A stretch of DNA of 64,000 bases from assembly GCA_024228115.1 (NCBI GenBank), contig JAAETT010000546.1:4109-68108 (forward strand), read 5' to 3'. The stretch comes from a bacterium (lineage in GTDB: Bacteria; Myxococcota_A; UBA9160; UBA6930). Positions 52,712 to 62,511 of this stretch are shown in pieces. Below the pieces are notes generated by a model, which worked only from the letters and a program-made list of their open reading frames with translations, had not been told where the DNA came from and searched no databases. Both the position numbers and the translations under genes were made by a program. Position 1 is the first letter of the stretch. Each line of letters starts with the position of its first letter.

Positions 52712-53953
52712 TCAAACCTCGGCAACCGGCTCTGCTGCACCGGCCTCGACGAACGCGGCGTGCAACGTGCGCACGGCAAGCTCGGTGTATTTCTCCTCGA
52801 TCACGACCGAGATCTTGATCTCGCTCGTCGTGATGAGTTGGATGTTGATGCCTTCCGCCGCAAGCGCCTCGAACATCTGGGCCGCCACGCCGGCATGGTC
52901 CTTCATCCCCAGGCCCACGACCGAGACCTTGGCGATCTCCTGGTCGCCCTCTACTTGTTCGGCGCCGACCGAGGCGGCGTGATCCTTCATCAACTCAAGC
53001 GCGCCGTCGTAGTCATCGCGGGGCACCGTGAAGGTCATGTCAGTCGTGCCGTCCTGGGACATGTTCTGGATGATCATGTCGACGACGGTACCCGCGCGAG
53101 ACAACGGCCCGAACAACGCGGCGGCCACGCCGGGGTTGTCCTTCACGCCCAGGACTCGGATCTTGGCCTCGCTTCGATTGTAGGTCACACCGGAAACCAC
53201 CAGGCGTTCCATCACATCCTCCTCGCGCACCACCCATGTGCCCTCTCCTTCGTGGAAGGAGGAGCGGACGTGAATGGGAATGCCATCTGCCATTGCAAAC
53301 TTCACCGACCGGATCTGCAGGACCTTCGCGCCCAGACTGGCCATCTCGAGCATCTCCTCGTAGGAAATGCGATCGAGCTTTCGAGCCGCCGGTACCATGT
53401 TCGGATCGGTCGTGAAGACGCCGTCCACATCGGTGTAGATCTCGCAGACATCCGCTTTCAGGGCGCAGGCAACGGCCACGGCGGAGGTATCGGTGCCACC
53501 ACGACCCAGGGTCGTGATGTTGCCGTTGTCATCGGTGCCCTGGAAACCCGCGATCACGGGAACCTCACCGGAGGAGATGGCGCTTCGGATGCGCTCGGCA
53601 TCGATGCTCAGGATGCGCGCGCGGCTGTGGTCGCCATCGGTTCGCATGCCGATCTGCGCTCCGGTAAAGGAGCGTGCCTCGTGGCCCAGTTGATGAATGG
53701 CCATCACCAGGAGGGCGATCGTCTTCTGTTCACCGGTCGAGACGAGGACATCGTATTCGCGCGGGCTCGGCACTTGACCACCGAGCTCCTTGGCCAGTGC
53801 CACGAGCTGGTTGGTCTCACCGGACATGGCCGAGACGACGACGGCGACGTCATGGCCAGCCTGCTTCGTAGCCACGACCCTGCGCGCGACGTTCCGAATC
53901 CGTTCCGGATCGCCCACGCTGGTGCCGCCGAATTTCTGGACGATCAAGGACAT
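52712..53953 (-). CDS. lysC: Aspartate kinase
   Basis: VQKFGGTSVG, VVVSAMSG, TTLGRGGTDTSA, YTDVDGV, two ACT domains ending TSEIKIS. Confidence 0.96.
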   Translation of the reverse strand: MSLIVQKFGGTSVGDPERIRNVARRVVATKQAGHDVAVVVSAMSGETNQLVALAKELGGQVPSPREYDVLVSTGEQKTIALLVMAIHQLGHEARSFTGAQIGMRTDGDHSRARILSIDAERIRSAISSGEVPVIAGFQGTDDNGNITTLGRGGTDTSAVAVACALKADVCEIYTDVDGVFTTDPNMVPAARKLDRISYEEMLEMASLGAKVLQIRSVKFAMADGIPIHVRSSFHEGEGTWVVREEDVMERLVVSGVTYNRSEAKIRVLGVKDNPGVAAALFGPLSRAGTVVDMIIQNMSQDGTTDMTFTVPRDDYDGALELMKDHAASVGAEQVEGDQEIAKVSVVGLGMKDHAGVAAQMFEALAAEGINIQLITTSEIKISVVIEEKYTELAVRTLHAAFVEAGAAEPVAEV

Positions 53954-54435
53954 GCTGCGCTCCAACGCTCGAGCGTGGCTCGGGAAGCAGGCCCCAACGC
54001 CGCGACACACACATGCCGATCCTCGACACCGCCCCCCGGGCGGAGCTCGATTTCGAGGCGATCCTGGGGAAGCGCTTCAGGGAAGCGATCGCCCCATTCC
54101 ACCACCAGCCCCACGCCCGGCGCGAGCCAATCGTGGAGACCCGACGCCATGAGCTCATCCTCGCTCTCGACGCGATACCAATCTGCATGCACCAGGCGAA
54201 GCTCCGGCGGTGCCCCGTATTCGTTGGCGATCACGAAGGTCGGGCTCGAAACGCCGGACGGATCGATGCCCAGGCCTTCGGCCAGCGCCTTCGCGAAGAG
54301 CGTCTTTCCCGCTCCGAGCGGTCCGTTCAAGCTCACGACCCATCCTTTGCCATTGCCCACCTGGAGCAATGCGGTTGCCAATGCGCGCGCCAGCGCGCTC
54401 GTTTCAGTGGGACTCTTGGAAGGCCAGTTGCGCAT
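53944..54435 (-). CDS. tsaE: tRNA threonylcarbamoyladenosine biosynthesis ATPase
   Basis: LNGPLGAGKT, SSPTF, HADWYR, VEWGD. Confidence 0.92.
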   Translation of the reverse strand: MRNWPSKSPTETSALARALATALLQVGNGKGWVVSLNGPLGAGKTLFAKALAEGLGIDPSGVSSPTFVIANEYGAPPELRLVHADWYRVESEDELMASGLHDWLAPGVGLVVEWGDRFPEALPQDRLEIELRPGGGVEDRHVCVAALGPASRATLERWSAACP

Positions 54436-56023
54436 CGGCCGGCTCCGGGAATCCCAGGACATCGCCCTCCGGCGCTGCTTCTTCTTCTGCGGTTCTGCGA
54501 TAGGCCTCGAGCACCTCGGGCAGGAGATCGACCAGCTCGCCCGCCAACAGACCCACGTCTCCGCGGCGGGAGGCGAAGAGTTCTCCGGCAGCGCCGTGCA
54601 CGGCTGGTCCCGCAATTCCGGCCTGAAATGCAGAAAGGCCCTGGGCGATGAATCCACCCACCACGCCGGCCAGCACATCGCCTGTGCCGCCCGTTCCCAG
54701 GACGGGCCCGCCCGTGGGATTCACGGCCAGTTGGCCTGTGGGTTCTGCTGTCACCGTTCCCGCTCCCTTCAACACCACGACGGCACCACTCGCCCGCGCC
54801 AAGGCACGAGCGGCCTTGGGCCGGTCGGCGAGTACCTCGGCGGTCGTCTGATCGAGCAGCGCCGCGGCTTCTCCCGGGTGGGGCGTCACGATAGTGACCG
54901 GCTGTCGGGCCTTCAACACGTCGAGCTGGCCGCGGAACGCCAGTAGGCCATCGGCATCCAGGATCAGCGGAACCGCCAGCTGCTCGGCAAGGCGGCGGAT
55001 CAAATCGAGGGTCTCTCCGCCTCGGCCGACACCCGGGCCCAGCACCACCGCATCTCGGCTCGCCGCCAGCTCGAGAATCGCCTTCTGGGCCGAGAGCGCG
55101 AGCGCGTGCTCGGCCGTCTCGGCAACCGGCGACGTCATGGCTTCGGTGCACTTCACCTCGAGGATCGGGTTCGTGCTCGCCGGGCAGGCGATCGTCACCA
55201 ATCCGGCGCCGCTCCGGCTCGCGCCATGCGCGGCCAAGGCCGCTGCGCCGGTCATGCCTTCGGAGCCGGCCACCACCAGTACATGGCCGAAGGTCCCCTT
55301 GTGGCCATGTACGGGCCGCCCCGGCAGCAGTTCGCCCACCGCACGCCGAGTCCAGAGCTCGGCTTGTGGATGGATGCCCGGAGCCGCGTCGAGAATGCCG
55401 ATGCGGCCCACACGAATCTGGCCCGCATGTCGTCGCCCGGGCTCCAGGGCCAACCCGAGTTTCGGAAGGCCCAGCGTGAGCGTGGCGTCTGCCTCCACGG
55501 CAACGCCCAATACCTGCCCCGTATCTGCATCGAGCCCCGACGGGAGATCGACCGAGAGAACCCGGACGCCCGCCGGCCGCTCGACGAGCTTCCGAATCCA
55601 ACGCGCAAGCTCGCCCTCGACGGGTCGACGAAGGCCGGTTCCGAACAGGGCATCGACGATCACATCGCCAGCCCGCGCTCGTAGCCGGGTGCCGGTGGGC
55701 ACGCCGACGCGCTCGGCGCGAGCGGCATTCGCAGCGGCATCGCCCTGTAGCTCGGCCGGAGGCAGCGCAGGAAGAATCTGAACCGGAACGCCCCGCGCAT
55801 GAAGGTGCCGCCCCGCCACCCAGCCATCGCCACCATTGTTGCCGGCGCCGCAGAGGATCCAGACCCGCCCGCCTGGAGAAAGCAGGGCCTCGGCCTCTCG
55901 CGCCACAAGCTGGCCCGCGCACTCCATCAACAGCTCGCCGGCGATGCCGAGTGTCTCGATCGTATGGCGATCGAGCGCACGCATCTCTTCGGCAGTCAGG
56001 AGTGGCCAACGAGGAATAGGCAT
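54404..56023 (-). CDS. nnr: Bifunctional NAD(P)H-hydrate epimerase/dehydratase
   Basis: CGAGNNGGDG, DALFGTG, DLPSG; HKGTFG, GPGVG, LDADG, TPHPGE, LKG, GTGGTGDVLAG. Confidence 0.95.
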   Translation of the reverse strand: MPIPRWPLLTAEEMRALDRHTIETLGIAGELLMECAGQLVAREAEALLSPGGRVWILCGAGNNGGDGWVAGRHLHARGVPVQILPALPPAELQGDAAANAARAERVGVPTGTRLRARAGDVIVDALFGTGLRRPVEGELARWIRKLVERPAGVRVLSVDLPSGLDADTGQVLGVAVEADATLTLGLPKLGLALEPGRRHAGQIRVGRIGILDAAPGIHPQAELWTRRAVGELLPGRPVHGHKGTFGHVLVVAGSEGMTGAAALAAHGASRSGAGLVTIACPASTNPILEVKCTEAMTSPVAETAEHALALSAQKAILELAASRDAVVLGPGVGRGGETLDLIRRLAEQLAVPLILDADGLLAFRGQLDVLKARQPVTIVTPHPGEAAALLDQTTAEVLADRPKAARALARASGAVVVLKGAGTVTAEPTGQLAVNPTGGPVLGTGGTGDVLAGVVGGFIAQGLSAFQAGIAGPAVHGAAGELFASRRGDVGLLAGELVDLLPEVLEAYRRTAEEEAAPEGDVLGFPEPADAQLAFQESH

Positions 56024-56054: not shown

Positions 56055-56765
56055 TTAGGAGATCCGGCCTCGCAGGTCCCGGGTCGCCTGGTCGATGCCC
56101 GAGAGCAGGCCCCGGCCGACCCATTCACGGCCAACGGCCACCCACTCGCACACCGGCGCCACCTCCAACAAGCGAGCCGAGGATCGCTCGTCGAGGCGGC
56201 CTCCCAGGCCCACACGCAGGCCGAGCTTGGCGGCGAGACGAGTGGCGTCGGCAAGTCCGCCAAGCGCGGGCTCGGCCTCGCTTTCCGGCAGATCGACGAG
56301 CTGGTGGGTATCGAGCTCCACCGCGCGAATATCCGCATGGCGGGCCGCCTTGACGGCTTCCGGGTGCGGCGCGATACGCGCTATCACGCCGATCCCCGCC
56401 TCCTGGAGCGTGCGCACCACCGGGGAGAGCGCACTCCCCCAGGCCTGAAAATCGAGCGGCCCGGCAGCACGGCCGGCCGAGCGTGTCTCGGCGGCCAGAA
56501 GCACCCGCTCGGGCCTGGCTTCGAGCGCACTCTTCACGAGGGTCGGCATGGGCGCCATGCGTAGCTCGAGCTGTCGCGCCGCACGACGGACATCGAGCAC
56601 ATCGCTTTCCGTGACGGGCCGATGCTCTTCGAGGAGCCCAATGCGCACCGCATCGGAACCTCCAAGCTCCGCCAGAACAGCGGCCGCACCTAGCGTGGCC
56701 GTGCGTTGCAGCACCTGATCGCGAAGCACCGCGATCGAGTCGAGACCGGTGATGAGTTTTCGCAT
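56055..56765 (-). CDS. pdxJ: PdxJ (pyridoxine 5'-phosphate synthase) homologue with degenerate active site
   Basis: Full-length by-eye alignment to PdxJ (LDSIAVLR, AELGGSDA, VELDT, AKLGLRV) at the syntenic position after glmM; catalytic residues substituted. Confidence 0.75.
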   Translation of the reverse strand: MRKLITGLDSIAVLRDQVLQRTATLGAAAVLAELGGSDAVRIGLLEEHRPVTESDVLDVRRAARQLELRMAPMPTLVKSALEARPERVLLAAETRSAGRAAGPLDFQAWGSALSPVVRTLQEAGIGVIARIAPHPEAVKAARHADIRAVELDTHQLVDLPESEAEPALGGLADATRLAAKLGLRVGLGGRLDERSSARLLEVAPVCEWVAVGREWVGRGLLSGIDQATRDLRGRIS

Positions 56766-56767
56766 GG

Positions 56768-58144
56768 TCAGCTCGCGTCTCCGACGGCTCGGCTCAAGGC
56801 ATCCGCCAGATCCTGGGCGTAGCCGGCGACCCGTTCTTCATCTTCGCCTTCGACCATCACGCGCGCCTTCGGCTCGGTGCCCGAGTATCGGATCAGGACA
56901 CGCCCGGAGCTGCCGAGTTCGCTTTCCACCTGAGCCAGGCGCTCCAGGAACGTTGGCAGCTCTTCGATCGGCGTCTTCTCGCCCACCTCCACGTTGATCA
57001 GCGCCTGGGGGAAGCGTTCGAAATCCGCCACCAGCTCCGAGAGCGGCTTCTGCTGCTTGCACATCACCGCTAGTGCCTGAAGGCCGGTCAGCAGCCCGTC
57101 TCCCGTGGTGTTGTGATCCAGGAAGACGATATGACCACTCTGCTCGCCGCCTAGGTTGTAGCCGCCCTCTCGCATCCCCTCGACGACATAGCGATCACCG
57201 ACCTTGGTGCGAATCAACCGAAGGCCGAGCTTCTCGACGGCCTTCTCGAGACCGATGTTGCTGTAGGCCGTCGCGACCATTCCGCCGCCGCGAAGTTTCC
57301 CGCGCTGCTGGAAGTCCTTTGCAAAGAGGGCCAACAATGCGTCACCGTCGACGACCTGGCCCTTTTCATCGACCAACATCACACGATCGGCGTCGCCGTC
57401 CACCGCGATACCGATATCGGCGCGCAGCTCTCTCACCTTGGCAGAGAGGCGTTCGGGGTGGAGTGAGCCTGCCTTCTCGTTGATGTTGGTGCCGTTCGGT
57501 TCCACACCGATGGTGAAGAGCTCGGCGCCAAGCTCCTGGAGCATGGTGGGGCCGACTTTGTAGGCGGCGCCATTGGCGCAATCGAGAACGACCCGCAGGC
57601 CCTCGAGATCCCGATCAAAGGGGAAGCACTTCTTCAGGAAGACGACGTAACGGCCCTCCGCATCATCGATTCTCTTCGCCCGCCCGATGGCATCGGGCAT
57701 CGCGCGATGGCCGAGCAGCTCGTCGGAGGCAATCAACGCCTCGATCCGCTGTTCGACCGAATCGGGCAGCTTGAAGCCGTCATGAGCGAAGAACTTGATC
57801 CCGTTGTCGTGATAGGGATTGTGGCTCGCGGAGATCATGGCGCCTGCATCGCAGCGCATATCCCGCGTAAGGAATGCCATGGCCGGTGTCGGCATCGGGC
57901 CGACCTGGATCACGTTGCCGCCCATCGAGCAGATGCCCGCGGCCAACGCGTCCTCGAACATGTAGCCGGAGAGCCTCGTATCCTTGCCGATCAGGAACCG
58001 GTGCAGGCCGTCGCCGTCCCTCCGGAACACGTGGGCGATCGCCTGGCCGAGCTTCAATGCGACCTCGACCGTCATGGGAAAGACATTCGCCTTGCCCCGC
58101 ACCCCGTCGGTTCCGAACAGCGCGTGAGGCCGCTCGTCGCTCAT
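56768..58144 (-). CDS. glmM: Phosphoglucosamine mutase
   Basis: FGTDGVRG, GKDTRLSG, MISASHNP, DGDADR, GGEQSGH, RYSGTEP. Confidence 0.97.
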   Translation of the reverse strand: MSDERPHALFGTDGVRGKANVFPMTVEVALKLGQAIAHVFRRDGDGLHRFLIGKDTRLSGYMFEDALAAGICSMGGNVIQVGPMPTPAMAFLTRDMRCDAGAMISASHNPYHDNGIKFFAHDGFKLPDSVEQRIEALIASDELLGHRAMPDAIGRAKRIDDAEGRYVVFLKKCFPFDRDLEGLRVVLDCANGAAYKVGPTMLQELGAELFTIGVEPNGTNINEKAGSLHPERLSAKVRELRADIGIAVDGDADRVMLVDEKGQVVDGDALLALFAKDFQQRGKLRGGGMVATAYSNIGLEKAVEKLGLRLIRTKVGDRYVVEGMREGGYNLGGEQSGHIVFLDHNTTGDGLLTGLQALAVMCKQQKPLSELVADFERFPQALINVEVGEKTPIEELPTFLERLAQVESELGSSGRVLIRYSGTEPKARVMVEGEDEERVAGYAQDLADALSRAVGDAS

Positions 58145-58815
58145 CCCGTCTCCTCCACTTCCACTTCGGGCTCCTCAGCGATGGGGGCCACCTGTACGCG
58201 GACGGTCACGTCCTGTTCCTTCTCGACCCAGACGTGGCGCCCAACCAGGGCCGGCTTCACACTCCGCTCCAGCGGCGCATCGAGGCCGTTCACATCAATC
58301 GTTTCGGTCATTACCTCCGCCAACCGAAGCACTTCGCTACGAGCGCCGGTAATCCAGATCCGGGCCGGCTCGACCTGGACCCCTTCGATGGCGAAGCCAG
58401 GCGCAGGGTCTCCAGCGACATCCGGGCGCAGGGGAACGGCCTTTCGGCCTCTCTGGGTGAGGGTGAACTCGATTCCGCCCGGAGAGCGACTGACGACCTG
58501 CAGGCCCCGGGGCAGCTCGAGCTCCTGGGTTTCGACGGTATGGGCCGTCACCCCGCGCTGGGCGCCAGAAAGATCGACGCCGTAGACCATGTCCCCGACC
58601 GAGAGCCTCCGCAGTGCGGCCCGACTCCCCCGCACCCGGACGTTGACCGTATCCGTGGATTGCTCGGTGACGACCAGTTTGTCCGGAACCCCCACCAGCG
58701 CCACGGGAAGATCGAAGCCCCGCTCGATCGACGAGGTGCTGTGGGAGAGCCCCCAGAGCAGGAACGCCGCGATCAGGGCCATCAACTTGAACCCGAGGTT
58801 CTTGAAGATTCTCAT
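58141..58815 (-). CDS. cdaR: YbbR-like domain protein (CdaR)
   Basis: N-terminal TM (FKLMALIAAFLLW) plus YbbR-type repeats (VNVRVRG, VEPARIWITG); lies between cdaA and glmM. Confidence 0.85.
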   Translation of the reverse strand: MRIFKNLGFKLMALIAAFLLWGLSHSTSSIERGFDLPVALVGVPDKLVVTEQSTDTVNVRVRGSRAALRRLSVGDMVYGVDLSGAQRGVTAHTVETQELELPRGLQVVSRSPGGIEFTLTQRGRKAVPLRPDVAGDPAPGFAIEGVQVEPARIWITGARSEVLRLAEVMTETIDVNGLDAPLERSVKPALVGRHVWVEKEQDVTVRVQVAPIAEEPEVEVEETG

Positions 58816-59717
58816 CGCGTGTGCACCGCATCCGAGGGACCCGTGGCGGAGCCGCCGCTCTCGGCCGGTTCCTCGATGCCCGCGACGATCTCCTCGATCG
58901 GTGCATCGAGGATCGAATCCCGCGAGAAGAGATCACGCAAGACCACCCGCAACTGCGGAGCACCCAGATTGCGCGTGAGCGTGCCGCCGACGACGACCGA
59001 GATCCCGCCCGTCTCTTCCGACACGACGATGACCACGGCGTCGGTTTCCTCGGTGATGCCCACCGCCGCCCTGTGCCGGGTGCCCATGCCCTCCGGCAGA
59101 TCCCCGCTCAAGGTGAGCGGCAGGATGCAGCCTGCGTGGGTGACCCGGCCCTCCGTGATGATCACTGCGCCGTCGTGGATCGGGGAATAGGGCAAGAAGA
59201 TCGAGGTCAGAAGCTCTTTGCTCACGACGCCATCGATCGGCGTGCCCGCTTCGACCAGATCCTCGAGTCCGCTATCGCGCTCTAGCACGATCAGTGCGCC
59301 GACTCGCTTTTCCGCCAGGCTCTGCCCGGCGCGCACCACCTCCTCGAGGATCTGCGATTCCTGGCGCTCGCTGATGCGGGGAAACACGCCGCGGCCCACC
59401 CGGGCCAGCACCCGCCGGATATCCGCCTGGAACAACACGATGATGATCAGCACGGCGGAGGCCAGGAAATTCTCGAGGATCCAGGAGAGGGTCACGAGAT
59501 CGAAGAGATCCGAGACCAGCCGTAGGGCGAGCAGCGCCAACAGGCCCAGCAGGATCTGGATGGCCCGGGTGCCCTTCAACAGGAGGAGCAACCAGTAGAT
59601 GCCCAGGCTGACGACCAGGATGTCGAGGGTGTCGCGGACTGGATCGAACGTCGTGGACAGGAACAACCAGAGTTCGGAGCTCTCCGCTCGCAGCCACTCG
59701 ACCAGGAACTCGATCAC
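58812..59717 (-). CDS. cdaA: Diadenylate cyclase (membrane-bound)
   Basis: Three TM helices; DAC motifs IHDGA and GTRHRAA; VVSEETG. Confidence 0.95.
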   Translation of the reverse strand: MIEFLVEWLRAESSELWLFLSTTFDPVRDTLDILVVSLGIYWLLLLLKGTRAIQILLGLLALLALRLVSDLFDLVTLSWILENFLASAVLIIIVLFQADIRRVLARVGRGVFPRISERQESQILEEVVRAGQSLAEKRVGALIVLERDSGLEDLVEAGTPIDGVVSKELLTSIFLPYSPIHDGAVIITEGRVTHAGCILPLTLSGDLPEGMGTRHRAAVGITEETDAVVIVVSEETGGISVVVGGTLTRNLGAPQLRVVLRDLFSRDSILDAPIEEIVAGIEEPAESGGSATGPSDAVHTR

Positions 59718-60565
59718 GCCCTGGCCTCCCGCAGTGCCCGTGCAACCTGGACGGCACGACGTGCGCCGGCAACCTCGTGCACTCGAACCGCGTCCGCACC
59801 CGCAAACACCGCCACCGCACAGGCCGCTTGGCTGGCGGTATCTCGCGTGGCCGGCGCTTCATCGCCCGTGATGTGGGCGAGGAAGGATTTGCGAGAGGGT
59901 CCCACCATCACAGGTCGTCCGACTCGCTCGCGTAGCTCGCCGACACGGGCCAGCAGCGCCAGGTTGTGTCGGAGTTCCTTGCCGAAACCGATTCCCGGGT
60001 CGATCGCGATCTGTTCGGAGGCCACGCCCGCGGCTTCTGCAGCCGCCACCGCAGCGCGAAGCTCACCCGCCACCTCGGCCAGGACATCCTCGAACTGCAC
60101 AGCGTCCTGCATGTCGGCGGGCACACCGCGCAGATGGCCAACGACCAGGCCCGCATCATGACGTGCGACCACCTGTGCGAGTGCGGGATCGAAGGCGAGC
60201 CCCGAGACATCGTTCACGATCGTAGCCCCGGCCTCGAGCGCAGCGGATGCGACCTCGGCCTTGCGCGTATCGATCGATAGAGGGATGTCCAGATGCTTGG
60301 CGAGAGCCTCGATCACCGGCCGCGTACGCAGGATCTCCTCCCTGGCCGGCACTTCTTCCGCACCCGGTCGGGTCGATTCTCCGCCCACATCGATCCAATG
60401 CGCACCGGCCTCGACCATCGCCCGGGCCTCTCGCAGCGCGGATTCCACATCCACGCTTTCGCCACGGCGCAGGAAGCGACCGCCGTCCGAGAAGGAATCG
60501 GGAGTCGCGTTCAGCACCCCGACGATCGTCACGCGTTCCGGCGGGAGGATCGTCGTCCTGGTCAT
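59714..60565 (-). CDS. folP: Dihydropteroate synthase
   Basis: LNATPDSFSDGG, DVGGESTRPG, SIDT, DPGIGFGK, GPSRKSF, VRVHEV. Confidence 0.96.
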   Translation of the reverse strand: MTRTTILPPERVTIVGVLNATPDSFSDGGRFLRRGESVDVESALREARAMVEAGAHWIDVGGESTRPGAEEVPAREEILRTRPVIEALAKHLDIPLSIDTRKAEVASAALEAGATIVNDVSGLAFDPALAQVVARHDAGLVVGHLRGVPADMQDAVQFEDVLAEVAGELRAAVAAAEAAGVASEQIAIDPGIGFGKELRHNLALLARVGELRERVGRPVMVGPSRKSFLAHITGDEAPATRDTASQAACAVAVFAGADAVRVHEVAGARRAVQVARALREARA

Positions 60566-60596
60566 CCGCCAACCTCTCTGGGGGGAGGTGATTCGA

Positions 60597-62511
<1,915 letters not shown>

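What the first reader, a model, noticed from the sequence alone, without database searches (positions are those of the whole stretch)
56055..56765. Full-length PdxJ pseudoenzyme retained in a core operon
Seen versus E. coli PdxJ as I recall it: VNIDH becomes TGLDS (N9G, H12S); R20 becomes V; VHLREDRRH becomes IGLLEEHRP (H45G, R47L, H52P); NLEM becomes ELRM (E72R); AGHG becomes LGGR (H193G); IGH becomes VGR. E153 is kept. The catalytic His45, Glu72 and His193 and most phosphate ligands are gone, yet the 236-aa frame is intact and syntenic. Inference: not a PNP synthase. It may be a repurposed TIM-barrel scaffold or ligand sensor, and the organism would need another source of vitamin B6.
Basis: partly seen in the sequence, partly recalled or inferred. 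Interest (0 to 1): 0.7.

Follow-up and report, generated by a model that had tools for sequence, protein, structure and literature searches.

The report
Catalytically dead PdxJ kept under selection
A Myxococcota bacterium that makes vitamin B6 by the PdxS/PdxT route still keeps, under strong purifying selection, the positional ortholog of the other route's key enzyme PdxJ with its catalytic residues replaced by a new conserved set, so public annotation as PNP synthase is almost certainly wrong and the protein must do something else.

Summary
ORF 56055-56765 (-) is a 236-aa PdxJ-fold TIM barrel (Pfam 114 bits; AF2 pLDDT 92.8; TM 0.9 to PdxJ structures). It scores far below every NCBIfam pdxJ equivalog cut-off. 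16 of 23 catalytic or ligand positions that are invariant in 36 canonical PdxJ are replaced.

This is not private decay. All PdxJ homologues in the window's order carry a new near-invariant signature: D11, P52, E70, R72, P106, E153, T156, G193, G215, R216 (E. coli numbering). The gene sits in the ancestral slot folP-cdaA-ybbR-glmM-pdxJ-[acpS]-nnr. dN/dS is 0.07-0.14, like glmM.

The genome has pdxR-pdxS-pdxT and no pdxA. Across the order, PdxS is in 47/47 genomes and PdxA in 0/47 at canonical strength. The sister order has canonical PdxJ plus PdxA, often with PdxS as well.

The gene was cleanly deleted at least 6-9 times in the order, and one genome holds an in-frame remnant. So it is useful but dispensable.

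Best reading: a PdxJ-derived pseudoenzyme or re-specified barrel that no longer makes PNP. Its present function is unproven. The leading guess is a one-phosphate ligand-binding or interaction module. I found no description of a PdxJ-derived pseudoenzyme in the two literature searches run.

The parts
56055..56765 (-). PdxJ-like protein (236 aa): PdxJ-fold (beta/alpha)8 barrel with a re-specified pocket. E. coli numbering, query residue in brackets: D11 (D9), E48 (E46), P52 (P50), E70 (E67), R72 (R69), P106 (P103), E153 (E150), T156 (T153), G193 (G189), G215 (G212), R216 (R213).
56768..58144 (-). glmM (phosphoglucosamine mutase). Its stop lies 2 nt before the pdxJ-like start, so translational coupling is likely.
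   Evidence: Pfam PGM_PMM I-IV; sequence
54404..56023 (-). nnr/yjeF (fused NAD(P)HX epimerase-dehydratase), 31 nt downstream of the pdxJ-like stop
   Evidence: Pfam YjeF_N + Carb_kinase
58141..58815 (-). ybbR/cdaR-like protein
   Evidence: Pfam YbbR
58812..59717 (-). cdaA (diadenylate cyclase with N-terminal TM domain)
   Evidence: Pfam DAC + CdaA_N
59714..60646 (-). folP-like pterin-binding enzyme, first gene of the conserved string
   Evidence: Pfam Pterin_bind 266 bits
53944..54678 (-). tsaE. The listed ORF is over-extended at its N-terminus and overlaps the end of nnr; the TsaE domain is residues 88-214.
   Evidence: Pfam TsaE
52712..54010 (-). aspartokinase, last conserved member of the string
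   Evidence: Pfam AA_kinase + ACT

Best explanation
This is the positional ortholog of pdxJ in a Myxococcota order that switched vitamin B6 synthesis to PdxS/PdxT and lost pdxA. Once PNP synthesis was no longer needed, the protein lost the second phosphate site (R20, R47, H52), the mobile lid (loop 95-106) and the acid/base residues (H45, E72, H193). It kept the barrel and the beta7/beta8 glycine cradle, and it fixed a new pocket set (E70, R72, R216 beside the retained D11, E48, E153, T156). It also tightened constraint on helices alpha3-alpha6 and a DLP loop after beta6. Shown here: it is not a canonical PNP synthase, it is orthologous, it is under purifying selection, it is order-wide, and it is dispensable (repeated clean losses). 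Inferred: it now works as a non-catalytic, pseudoenzyme-type module. It would bind one anionic or phosphorylated ligand in the remodelled pocket and/or a protein partner on the newly constrained helical face. The most plausible ligand is a B6 vitamer phosphate or DXP. It is co-translated with GlmM and Nnr/YjeF, whose epimerase domain has a reported B6-linked second role.
For: Fold and homology: Pfam PdxJ 114 bits; AF2 pLDDT 92.8, pTM 0.90; Foldseek top 16 hits are all PdxJ, TM 0.88-0.92 (one truncated chain 0.80), 21-27% identity. Loss of the catalytic set: 16/23 invariant sites changed, and NCBIfam equivalog cut-offs are missed by about 90-270 bits. Family-wide new signature: E70 121/121, R72 120/121, G193 121/121, R216 121/121, P106 120/121. 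Site classes: 6 re-specified, 31 lost, 18 gained. Orthology: the folP-cdaA-ybbR-glmM-pdxJ(L)-[acpS]-nnr-ask order is the same in the order, in the sister order with canonical PdxJ, and in family f34. Selection: dN/dS 0.07-0.14 against glmM 0.065-0.09 and nnr 0.10-0.15. Pathway logic: own genome has one PdxJ hit, no PdxA, PdxS at 340 bits with PdxT and a MocR-type PdxR beside it. In the order, PdxS is in 47/47 and PdxA in 0/47 at canonical strength. PdxH is patchy and uncoupled. The sister order has canonical PdxJ 10/10, PdxA 9/10, PdxS 6/10, a plausible transitional state. Retained glycine cradle (G192-G193, G215) plus new R216, with loop 4 unconstrained and low pLDDT (67 for residues 91-100). 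A second lineage (f34: PdxS present, PdxA absent) also keeps a degenerate PdxJ under dN/dS 0.03-0.11. The pdxJ-acpS-yjeF clustering and a B6-linked second function of the YjeF epimerase domain are published (PMC5938422).
Against: No biochemical or expression evidence: the RNA runs from the same samples held nothing from this organism. Former active-site positions are only marginally enriched for conservation in the new family (9/23 against 42/212, p = 0.058), and most newly constrained positions lie on helices. A purely interaction-based role, or a new catalytic role, fits about as well. At least 6-9 independent clean deletions in the order show the function is not essential. f34 lacks E48/E153, so the two dead lineages do not share a pocket signature beyond D11/G193/G215. 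No candidate ligand or partner was tested.
Confidence: 0.6

Rival explanations
1. Neo-functionalised enzyme. The barrel catalyses a different reaction on a mono-phosphorylated substrate, using the new invariant polar set (D11, E48, E70, R72, E153, T156, R216), possibly with a metal held by the acid cluster.
For: Seven polar residues at the C-terminal ends of the strands are at least 90% conserved across an order at about 47% overall identity. TIM barrels often change chemistry while keeping the beta7/beta8 phosphate cradle, which is retained here. dN/dS resembles that of a housekeeping enzyme. Dxs is present, so DXP exists in the cell.
Against: The lid loop needed for closed-state catalysis in PdxJ is unconstrained and gap-prone (PMC10471632). 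Most newly constrained positions are on surface helices, not in the pocket. The protein evolves about 1.7 times faster than canonical PdxJ relative to GlmM. Repeated loss occurs without loss of any neighbouring gene. No pathway partner was identified.
Confidence: 0.22
2. Pure scaffold or oligomeric partner. The pocket is dead and plugged by R72/R216 salt bridges. The selected feature is a protein-protein interface on helices alpha3-alpha6, perhaps an ancestral non-catalytic role of PdxJ in the glmM-acpS-nnr module.
For: 18 gained-constraint positions are mostly charged residues on helices alpha3-alpha6 and the DLP loop. Many have the same majority residue as canonical PdxJ (R121, E125, K142, D177, R180, L181, L185, R229, R232), as if a pre-existing surface became more constrained. 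Two lineages with different pockets both keep the protein under selection. The gene is tightly coupled to glmM.
Against: No partner was identified. A column scan of GlmM for residues tracking presence or absence of the gene gave only weak, phylogeny-confounded signals, and the Nnr and Ask scans crashed before giving output. The interface could simply be the homo-octamer interface. The pocket signature is still invariant in the order.
Confidence: 0.12
3. Slowly dying relic. The protein has no function of its own. The frame is kept only because it sits between glmM and nnr (translational coupling, operon polarity) and because misfolded product would be costly.
For: At least 6-9 independent clean deletions and one in-frame remnant exist in the order. 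The protein evolves faster than canonical PdxJ relative to GlmM. It is absent from the smallest genomes of the order.
Against: dN/dS of 0.07-0.14 equals that of glmM. Six re-specified and 18 newly constrained positions, including surface charges, are invariant across an order, which coupling or anti-misfolding selection would not produce. The 18 'none' genomes whose locus is fully assembled show the operon works with glmM directly joined to nnr, so no spacer gene is needed.
Confidence: 0.04
4. Still a PNP synthase, with an alternative catalytic solution.
For: PdxJ fold, D11 and E153 retained, Dxs and PdxH present in this genome. Public sources name it so.
Against: No PdxA in this genome or in 45 of 47 order genomes; the other two have only weak 217-224 bit PdxA-family hits. 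PdxS/T is present everywhere. About half of the carriers lack PdxH. 16/23 invariant sites are gone, including both Arg of the second phosphate site and the three proposed acid/base residues.
Confidence: 0.02

Closest known systems
Pyridoxine 5'-phosphate synthase PdxJ (EC 2.6.99.2; Pfam PF03740; E. coli 1HO1/1M5W)
   Same: Same fold (TM about 0.9), same length, same genomic slot (glmM-pdxJ-[acpS]-nnr). Retained D11, E48, E153, T156, G215 and several core or helix residues.
   Different: 25-27% identity to the E. coli and Burkholderia PdxJ structures. H45, E72, H193, H216, N9, H12, R20, R47 and H52 are all replaced. Lid loop 95-106 is unconstrained. It fails all NCBIfam equivalog cut-offs. There is no PdxA partner, and B6 is made by PdxS/T.
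PDX1.2 of plants (pseudoenzyme paralog of PdxS/PDX1)
   Same: A catalytically disabled homologue of a vitamin B6 synthase, retained under selection.
   Different: Different fold family (PdxS, not PdxJ). PDX1.2 is a paralog that co-assembles with active PDX1. Here no active PdxJ remains, the protein is the ortholog itself, and there is no evidence of interaction with PdxS. This comparison rests on my own knowledge; PDX1.2 appeared only in an abstract listed.
YggS/PLPBP (COG0325) PLP-binding TIM-barrel homeostasis protein
   Same: A non-enzymatic TIM barrel that binds a B6 vitamer phosphate. It is a functional analogy for the proposed ligand-binding role.
   Different: No sequence relationship was tested or claimed. 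YggS binds PLP through a Schiff-base lysine, and no equivalent conserved lysine sits in this pocket signature.
pdxJ-acpS-yjeF gene clustering (Niehaus et al. 2018, PMC5938422)
   Same: The same neighbourhood. The paper takes the clustering as evidence that the YjeF epimerase domain has a B6-linked second function.
   Different: That work assumed catalytically active PdxJ. Here the clustered gene is catalytically degenerate, yet the clustering persists.

Membership tests
PdxJ family (homology/fold, Pfam PF03740) | Significant match to the family profile over the full length; (beta/alpha)8 PdxJ fold | tested here: met
   114.5 bits against a 24.5 cut-off, residues 7-232 on profile 5-231; Foldseek TM 0.9 to PdxJ structures
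PNP synthase (functional equivalog, EC 2.6.99.2) | Score above the NCBIfam/TIGRFAM equivalog cut-off | tested here: not met
   Best 102.5 bits against 190; TIGR00559 72.5 against 192.75
PNP synthase (functional equivalog, EC 2.6.99.2) | Catalytic and substrate-binding residues N9, D11, H12, R20, H45, R47, H52, E72, T102/T103, E153, H193, G194, G215, H216 | tested here: not met
   Only D11, E153 and G215 of these are kept; 16 of 23 invariant positions are replaced. Residue roles come from the E. coli structural literature as I recall it. Invariance in 36 canonical sequences was measured here.
PNP synthase (functional equivalog, EC 2.6.99.2) | Pathway context: PdxA supplies 3-amino-1-hydroxyacetone phosphate and PdxH oxidises PNP | tested here: not met
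   PdxA is absent from the genome and from 45/47 genomes of the order; the other 2 have only weak PdxA-family hits. PdxH is present here but absent from about half of the carriers.
PNP synthase (functional equivalog, EC 2.6.99.2) | Enzymatic activity / complementation of delta-pdxJ | not testable with these tools
   Needs a bench assay
Pseudoenzyme (catalytically disabled homologue retained by selection) | Clear homology to an enzyme, with loss of residues essential for its chemistry | tested here: met
Pseudoenzyme (catalytically disabled homologue retained by selection) | Purifying selection and conservation across species (not a pseudogene) | tested here: met
   dN/dS 0.07-0.14; intact in 26 full-length orthologues of the order and 120 metagenomic relatives; new invariant signature
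Pseudoenzyme (catalytically disabled homologue retained by selection) | Absence of any catalytic activity | not testable with these tools
   A new activity cannot be excluded by sequence

The most novel reading that the evidence does not exclude
PdxJ has an ancestral second, non-catalytic role tied to the conserved glmM-pdxJ-acpS-yjeF module, for example binding a B6 vitamer phosphate or partnering with the YjeF epimerase domain. The dead PdxJ lineages are natural separation-of-function alleles that preserve only that role after PdxS/T took over synthesis. Those lineages are this order, family f34, and many other degenerate clusters in metagenomes.
Probability: 0.2. Interest if true: 0.8.

Novelty: new variant of a known kind. 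Interest (0 to 1): 0.55.

Why it matters
PdxJ is treated as a well-annotated signature gene for the DXP-dependent B6 pathway in comparative genomics (PMC9997740). NCBI and JGI name these proteins 'pyridoxine 5'-phosphate synthase'. An order-wide, selected, catalytically degenerate PdxJ would give false pathway calls in MAG-based vitamin and auxotrophy predictions. Many other degenerate PdxJ clusters exist in metagenomes and would have the same effect.

In evolutionary terms, the data capture a pathway replacement in stages. The sister order has PdxA/J with PdxS/T in part of its genomes. This order has PdxS/T only, with a re-specified PdxJ. After that come repeated deletions.

Functionally, the case bears on the unexplained pdxJ-acpS-yjeF clustering and on the proposed B6-linked moonlighting of NAD(P)HX epimerase. 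The clustering persists even though the PdxJ chemistry is gone. To my knowledge, and within the two literature searches run here, this would be the first pseudoenzyme described for the PdxJ family.

Tried and rejected
1. A second pdxJ or a pdxA in the genome: none found.

2. Decaying pseudogene: rejected by dN/dS and by the order-wide signature.

3. Paralog rather than ortholog: rejected by synteny identical to that of canonical PdxJ in the sister order.

4. Coupling to PdxH: none.

5. RNA evidence: three RNA runs from the same samples contained nothing from this organism.

6. Column-wise association of GlmM residues with presence or absence of the gene: only weak signals (maximum frequency difference 0.6), confounded by phylogeny.

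7. Single or multiple origin of the degenerate lineages: unresolved. The PdxJ tree groups the order with f34/f26 (SH-aLRT 96). An AU test does not reject order + sister order as one clade (p = 0.376), so long-branch attraction cannot be excluded. The order and f34 do share some derived residues (R90, D177, G193, D233).

8. Genomic context of other degenerate clusters: the one contig looked up was too short to help.

9. Pocket geometry: the model's coordinates are not exposed to the scripting box, so no distance or cavity analysis was possible.

10. Literature: searches for a PdxJ pseudoenzyme found none.

Full report
**Observation**

The ORF at 56055-56765 (-) is real: 236 aa, with an ATG start 2 nt after the glmM stop codon. 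It is a full-length member of the PdxJ family by profile (Pfam PF03740, 114.5 bits against a 24.5 cut-off). It falls far below all six NCBIfam equivalog models for PNP synthase (57-102 bits against cut-offs of 190-347). Its best solved relatives are PdxJ of E. coli and others (E about 4e-17).

I compared 23 catalytic or ligand positions. These positions are invariant in 36 canonical PdxJ: 34 from the same phylum, one from an uncultured bacterium, and E. coli. The window's protein keeps 7 of them and changes 16.

**Not a private decay, but a family**

A search of the large protein collection found 388 relatives, and the best 120 are 50-91% identical. In these, the replacements are themselves conserved:
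- E70 in 121/121
- R72 in 120/121
- P106 in 120/121
- G193 in 121/121
- R216 in 121/121
- D11 in 115/121
- E153 in 119/121

I compared non-redundant sets of 56 family members and 31 canonical proteins. The positions fall into four classes:
- 14 positions are conserved and identical in both sets.
- 6 are conserved in both but re-specified: H52P, E72R, G106P, H193G, H216R, E233D.
- 31 were conserved only in canonical PdxJ and have lost constraint. These include N9, H12, R20, R47, R51, E96, E100, T102, T103, E104, G105, F133, H155 and G194, which is most of the substrate contacts and the whole lid loop.
- 18 have gained constraint. These are mostly charged residues on helices alpha3-alpha6 and a D-L-P motif after strand 6.

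Former active-site positions are still somewhat more conserved than the rest in the new family (9/23 against 42/212). The difference is marginal (p = 0.058).

An AlphaFold2 model built on a 61-sequence alignment is confident (pLDDT 92.8, pTM 0.90). It is an eight-stranded barrel, and the only weak stretch is residues 91-100, the former lid. Its top 16 structural neighbours are all PdxJ, with TM 0.88-0.92 (one truncated chain 0.80) at 21-27% identity.

**Orthology and context**

The gene order folP-cdaA-ybbR-glmM-pdxJ(like)-[acpS]-nnr-[tsaE]-aspartokinase is found in three groups:
- the window
- all relatives from the same order whose contigs span the locus
- the sister order of the same class, where the pdxJ slot holds a canonical PdxJ

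The window's protein is therefore the positional ortholog of PdxJ, not a paralog. The organism is an uncultured member of Myxococcota, judging by the record titles of the closest genomes.

**Pathway logic**

The window's genome is 97% complete. It has a single PdxJ-family hit, which is this gene. It has no PdxA. It has PdxS at 340 bits, flanked by PdxT and a MocR/GntR-type PdxR regulator. Dxs is present, and PdxH is just above its cut-off.

I surveyed 301 genomes of the phylum and made targeted searches in 80 of them. The picture by lineage:

| Lineage | PdxS | PdxA | PdxJ |
|---|---|---|---|
| Window's order (47 sampled) | 47/47 | none at canonical strength; two weak 217-224 bit PdxA-family hits | degenerate form in 26, an in-frame remnant in 1, none in 20 |
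| Sister order | 6/10 | 9/10 | canonical in 10/10 |
| Six typical genomes elsewhere in the phylum | 0/6 | 6/6 | canonical |
| f34 | 8/8 | 0/8 | degenerate |
| f26 and f19 | present | present | partly degenerate |
| f59 (one genome) | no hit | no hit | degenerate |

In the sister order both routes coexist in part of the genomes. The degenerate pockets in f34, f26/f19 and f59 differ from the one in the window's order.

PdxH is present in roughly half of the order's genomes, whether or not they carry the PdxJ-like gene. A PNP product would therefore be a dead end in many carriers.

**Selection**

Within the window's genus, pairwise Nei-Gojobori dN/dS for the PdxJ-like gene is 0.07-0.14. In the same genome pairs glmM gives 0.065-0.09 and nnr gives 0.10-0.15. 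Other genera in the order give 0.05-0.37, again close to the neighbouring genes. The degenerate PdxJ of f34 gives 0.03-0.11.

Over deeper divergence the protein evolves faster than canonical PdxJ. At a GlmM identity of 0.69, its identity is 0.47, against 0.69 for canonical PdxJ. Fewer sites are constrained, but those that remain are strongly held.

**Dispensability**

The 20 genomes of the order without any PdxJ hit all have glmM. In 18 of them glmM is followed directly by nnr or by acpS(-nnr) within about 30-230 bp. The remaining two contigs end too soon to tell. These absences are therefore clean deletions, not assembly gaps.

One genome (G087) keeps an in-frame remnant. About 33 N-terminal residues are fused to about 73 C-terminal residues, with strands 2-6 deleted. 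A congener (G167) has the full gene and two others have none.

On a GlmM+Nnr tree, presence or absence needs 8-9 changes, of which at least 6 are forced by well-supported branches. Genomes without the gene tend to be smaller.

**Origin**

On a PdxJ tree the order's proteins form one clade (SH-aLRT 100) on a long stem (0.68). That clade groups with the other degenerate lineages (SH-aLRT 96). An AU test does not reject the vertical expectation that the order and its sister order form one clade (p = 0.376). Long-branch attraction is possible.

The order and f34 share a few derived residues: R90, D177, G193 and D233. One origin or several therefore remains open.

Among 105 full-length 50%-identity cluster representatives nearest the query in a 1.8-billion-protein library, the H45/E72/H193/H216 tetrad is distributed as follows:
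- 30 carry the canonical tetrad.
- 10 are of the strict order type, with several near variants.
- More than 50 carry other degenerate combinations.

Degenerate PdxJ homologues are therefore common in metagenomes. The sample is biased towards divergent sequences.

**How it most likely works**

Shown:
- The protein cannot be filed as a PNP synthase.
- It is the ortholog of one.
- It is kept by purifying selection across an order that makes B6 with PdxS/T.
- It can be lost.

Inferred from alignment to the E. coli enzyme:
- The second phosphate site (R20', R47, H52) and the lid (95-105/106; PMC10471632) are gone.
- The beta7/beta8 glycine cradle is kept, with an added arginine (R216).
- A second arginine (R72) and a glutamate (E70) now sit where the catalytic Glu72 and Asn70 were, beside the retained D11, E48, E153 and T156.

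This pattern fits a pocket for one anionic or phosphorylated ligand without lid closure. It also fits a pocket plugged by salt bridges. The newly constrained helical face points to a protein interface.

I commit to a non-catalytic ligand-binding or interaction module as the most likely reading (about 0.35-0.4 for that mechanism, 0.6 for the overall 'functional pseudoenzyme' statement). A B6 vitamer phosphate or DXP is the first ligand to test. Two things suggest this: the protein's ancestry, and the published, still unexplained, pdxJ-acpS-yjeF clustering with the B6-linked second role of the YjeF epimerase domain (PMC5938422).

Rivals are a new enzyme activity (0.22), a pure scaffold (0.12), a slowly dying relic (0.04) and a still-active PNP synthase (0.02).

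**Comparison with what is known**

The comparative-genomics survey of PLP synthesis uses PdxJ as the signature of the DXP-dependent route and calls it well annotated. It lists ten genomes with both routes, among them the myxobacterium Minicystis rosea. It remarks only that their DXP-dependent route may be incomplete (PMC9997740).

My literature searches found no description of a PdxJ pseudoenzyme. The known B6-synthase pseudoenzyme, plant PDX1.2, belongs to the PdxS family. Public sources name the present family 'pyridoxine 5'-phosphate synthase'.

An earlier first-stage note in this scan recorded the same kind of protein in another genome. It adds no independent evidence.

**Verdict**

I classify it as a new variant of a known kind: the first PdxJ-derived pseudoenzyme or re-specified family, with a clear evolutionary setting. 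Interest is moderate to fairly high (0.55). The function itself remains to be shown at the bench.

Noticed in passing
G000 contig C150 (locus L086:3664-6701, minus strand): The genome's actual B6 synthesis locus: a MocR/GntR-type regulator (PdxR-like, 497 aa), then pdxS (301 aa, 340 bits), then pdxT (SNO, 156 bits). Ribosomal protein genes S6 and S18 lie downstream.
   Followed up: partly
L062:3286-3600 (genome G087, same family as the window): An in-frame internal deletion remnant of the PdxJ-like gene. About 33 N-terminal residues are fused to about 73 C-terminal residues, between glmM and nnr. A congener has the full gene and two others have none, so loss is caught in progress.
   Followed up: yes
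Loci L069-L080 (family f34), L064-L068 (f26), L081 (f19), L063 (f59): Other Myxococcota lineages also carry PdxJ homologues with degenerate but different catalytic sites. All but the single f59 genome have PdxS. f34 lacks PdxA and keeps the gene at dN/dS 0.03-0.11. f26 and f19 keep PdxA, H45, N70 and E72 but have lost R20, H52 and H193, and in f26 also E153.
   Followed up: partly
Proteins P0121-P0270: Of 105 full-length cluster representatives nearest the query in the 1.8-billion-protein library, only 30 have the canonical H45/E72/H193/H216 tetrad. More than 50 carry other degenerate combinations; E72R with H193G recurs, for example the 'HRGH' type. Their taxa and context are unknown, and the one contig looked up was 1.2 kb.
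   Followed up: partly
Sister order f9 (loci L082-L085; genomes G033, G045, G192, G252, G257, G287): Genomes with canonical PdxJ and a full PdxS, five of the six also with PdxA, so both de novo B6 routes coexist there. This is rare according to PMC9997740, which found ten such genomes among about 21,000.
   Followed up: partly
window 56768-60646 (-): folP-cdaA-ybbR(cdaR)-glmM. The c-di-AMP cyclase module known from Firmicutes (CdaA-CdaR-GlmM) is conserved as one string with folP and the pdxJ slot across several Myxococcota lineages.
   Followed up: no
Genomes G167:C1:46457-47293 and G147:C14:37571-38404: These are the only two PdxA-family hits in the order. They are weak (217-224 bits, against 260-347 for canonical PdxA elsewhere), so they may be PdxA2-type paralogs rather than PdxA.
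   Followed up: no
window 53944-54678 (-): The tsaE ORF as listed starts 275 nt inside the 3' end of nnr, and the TsaE domain begins only at residue 88. The real start is probably further downstream.
   Followed up: no
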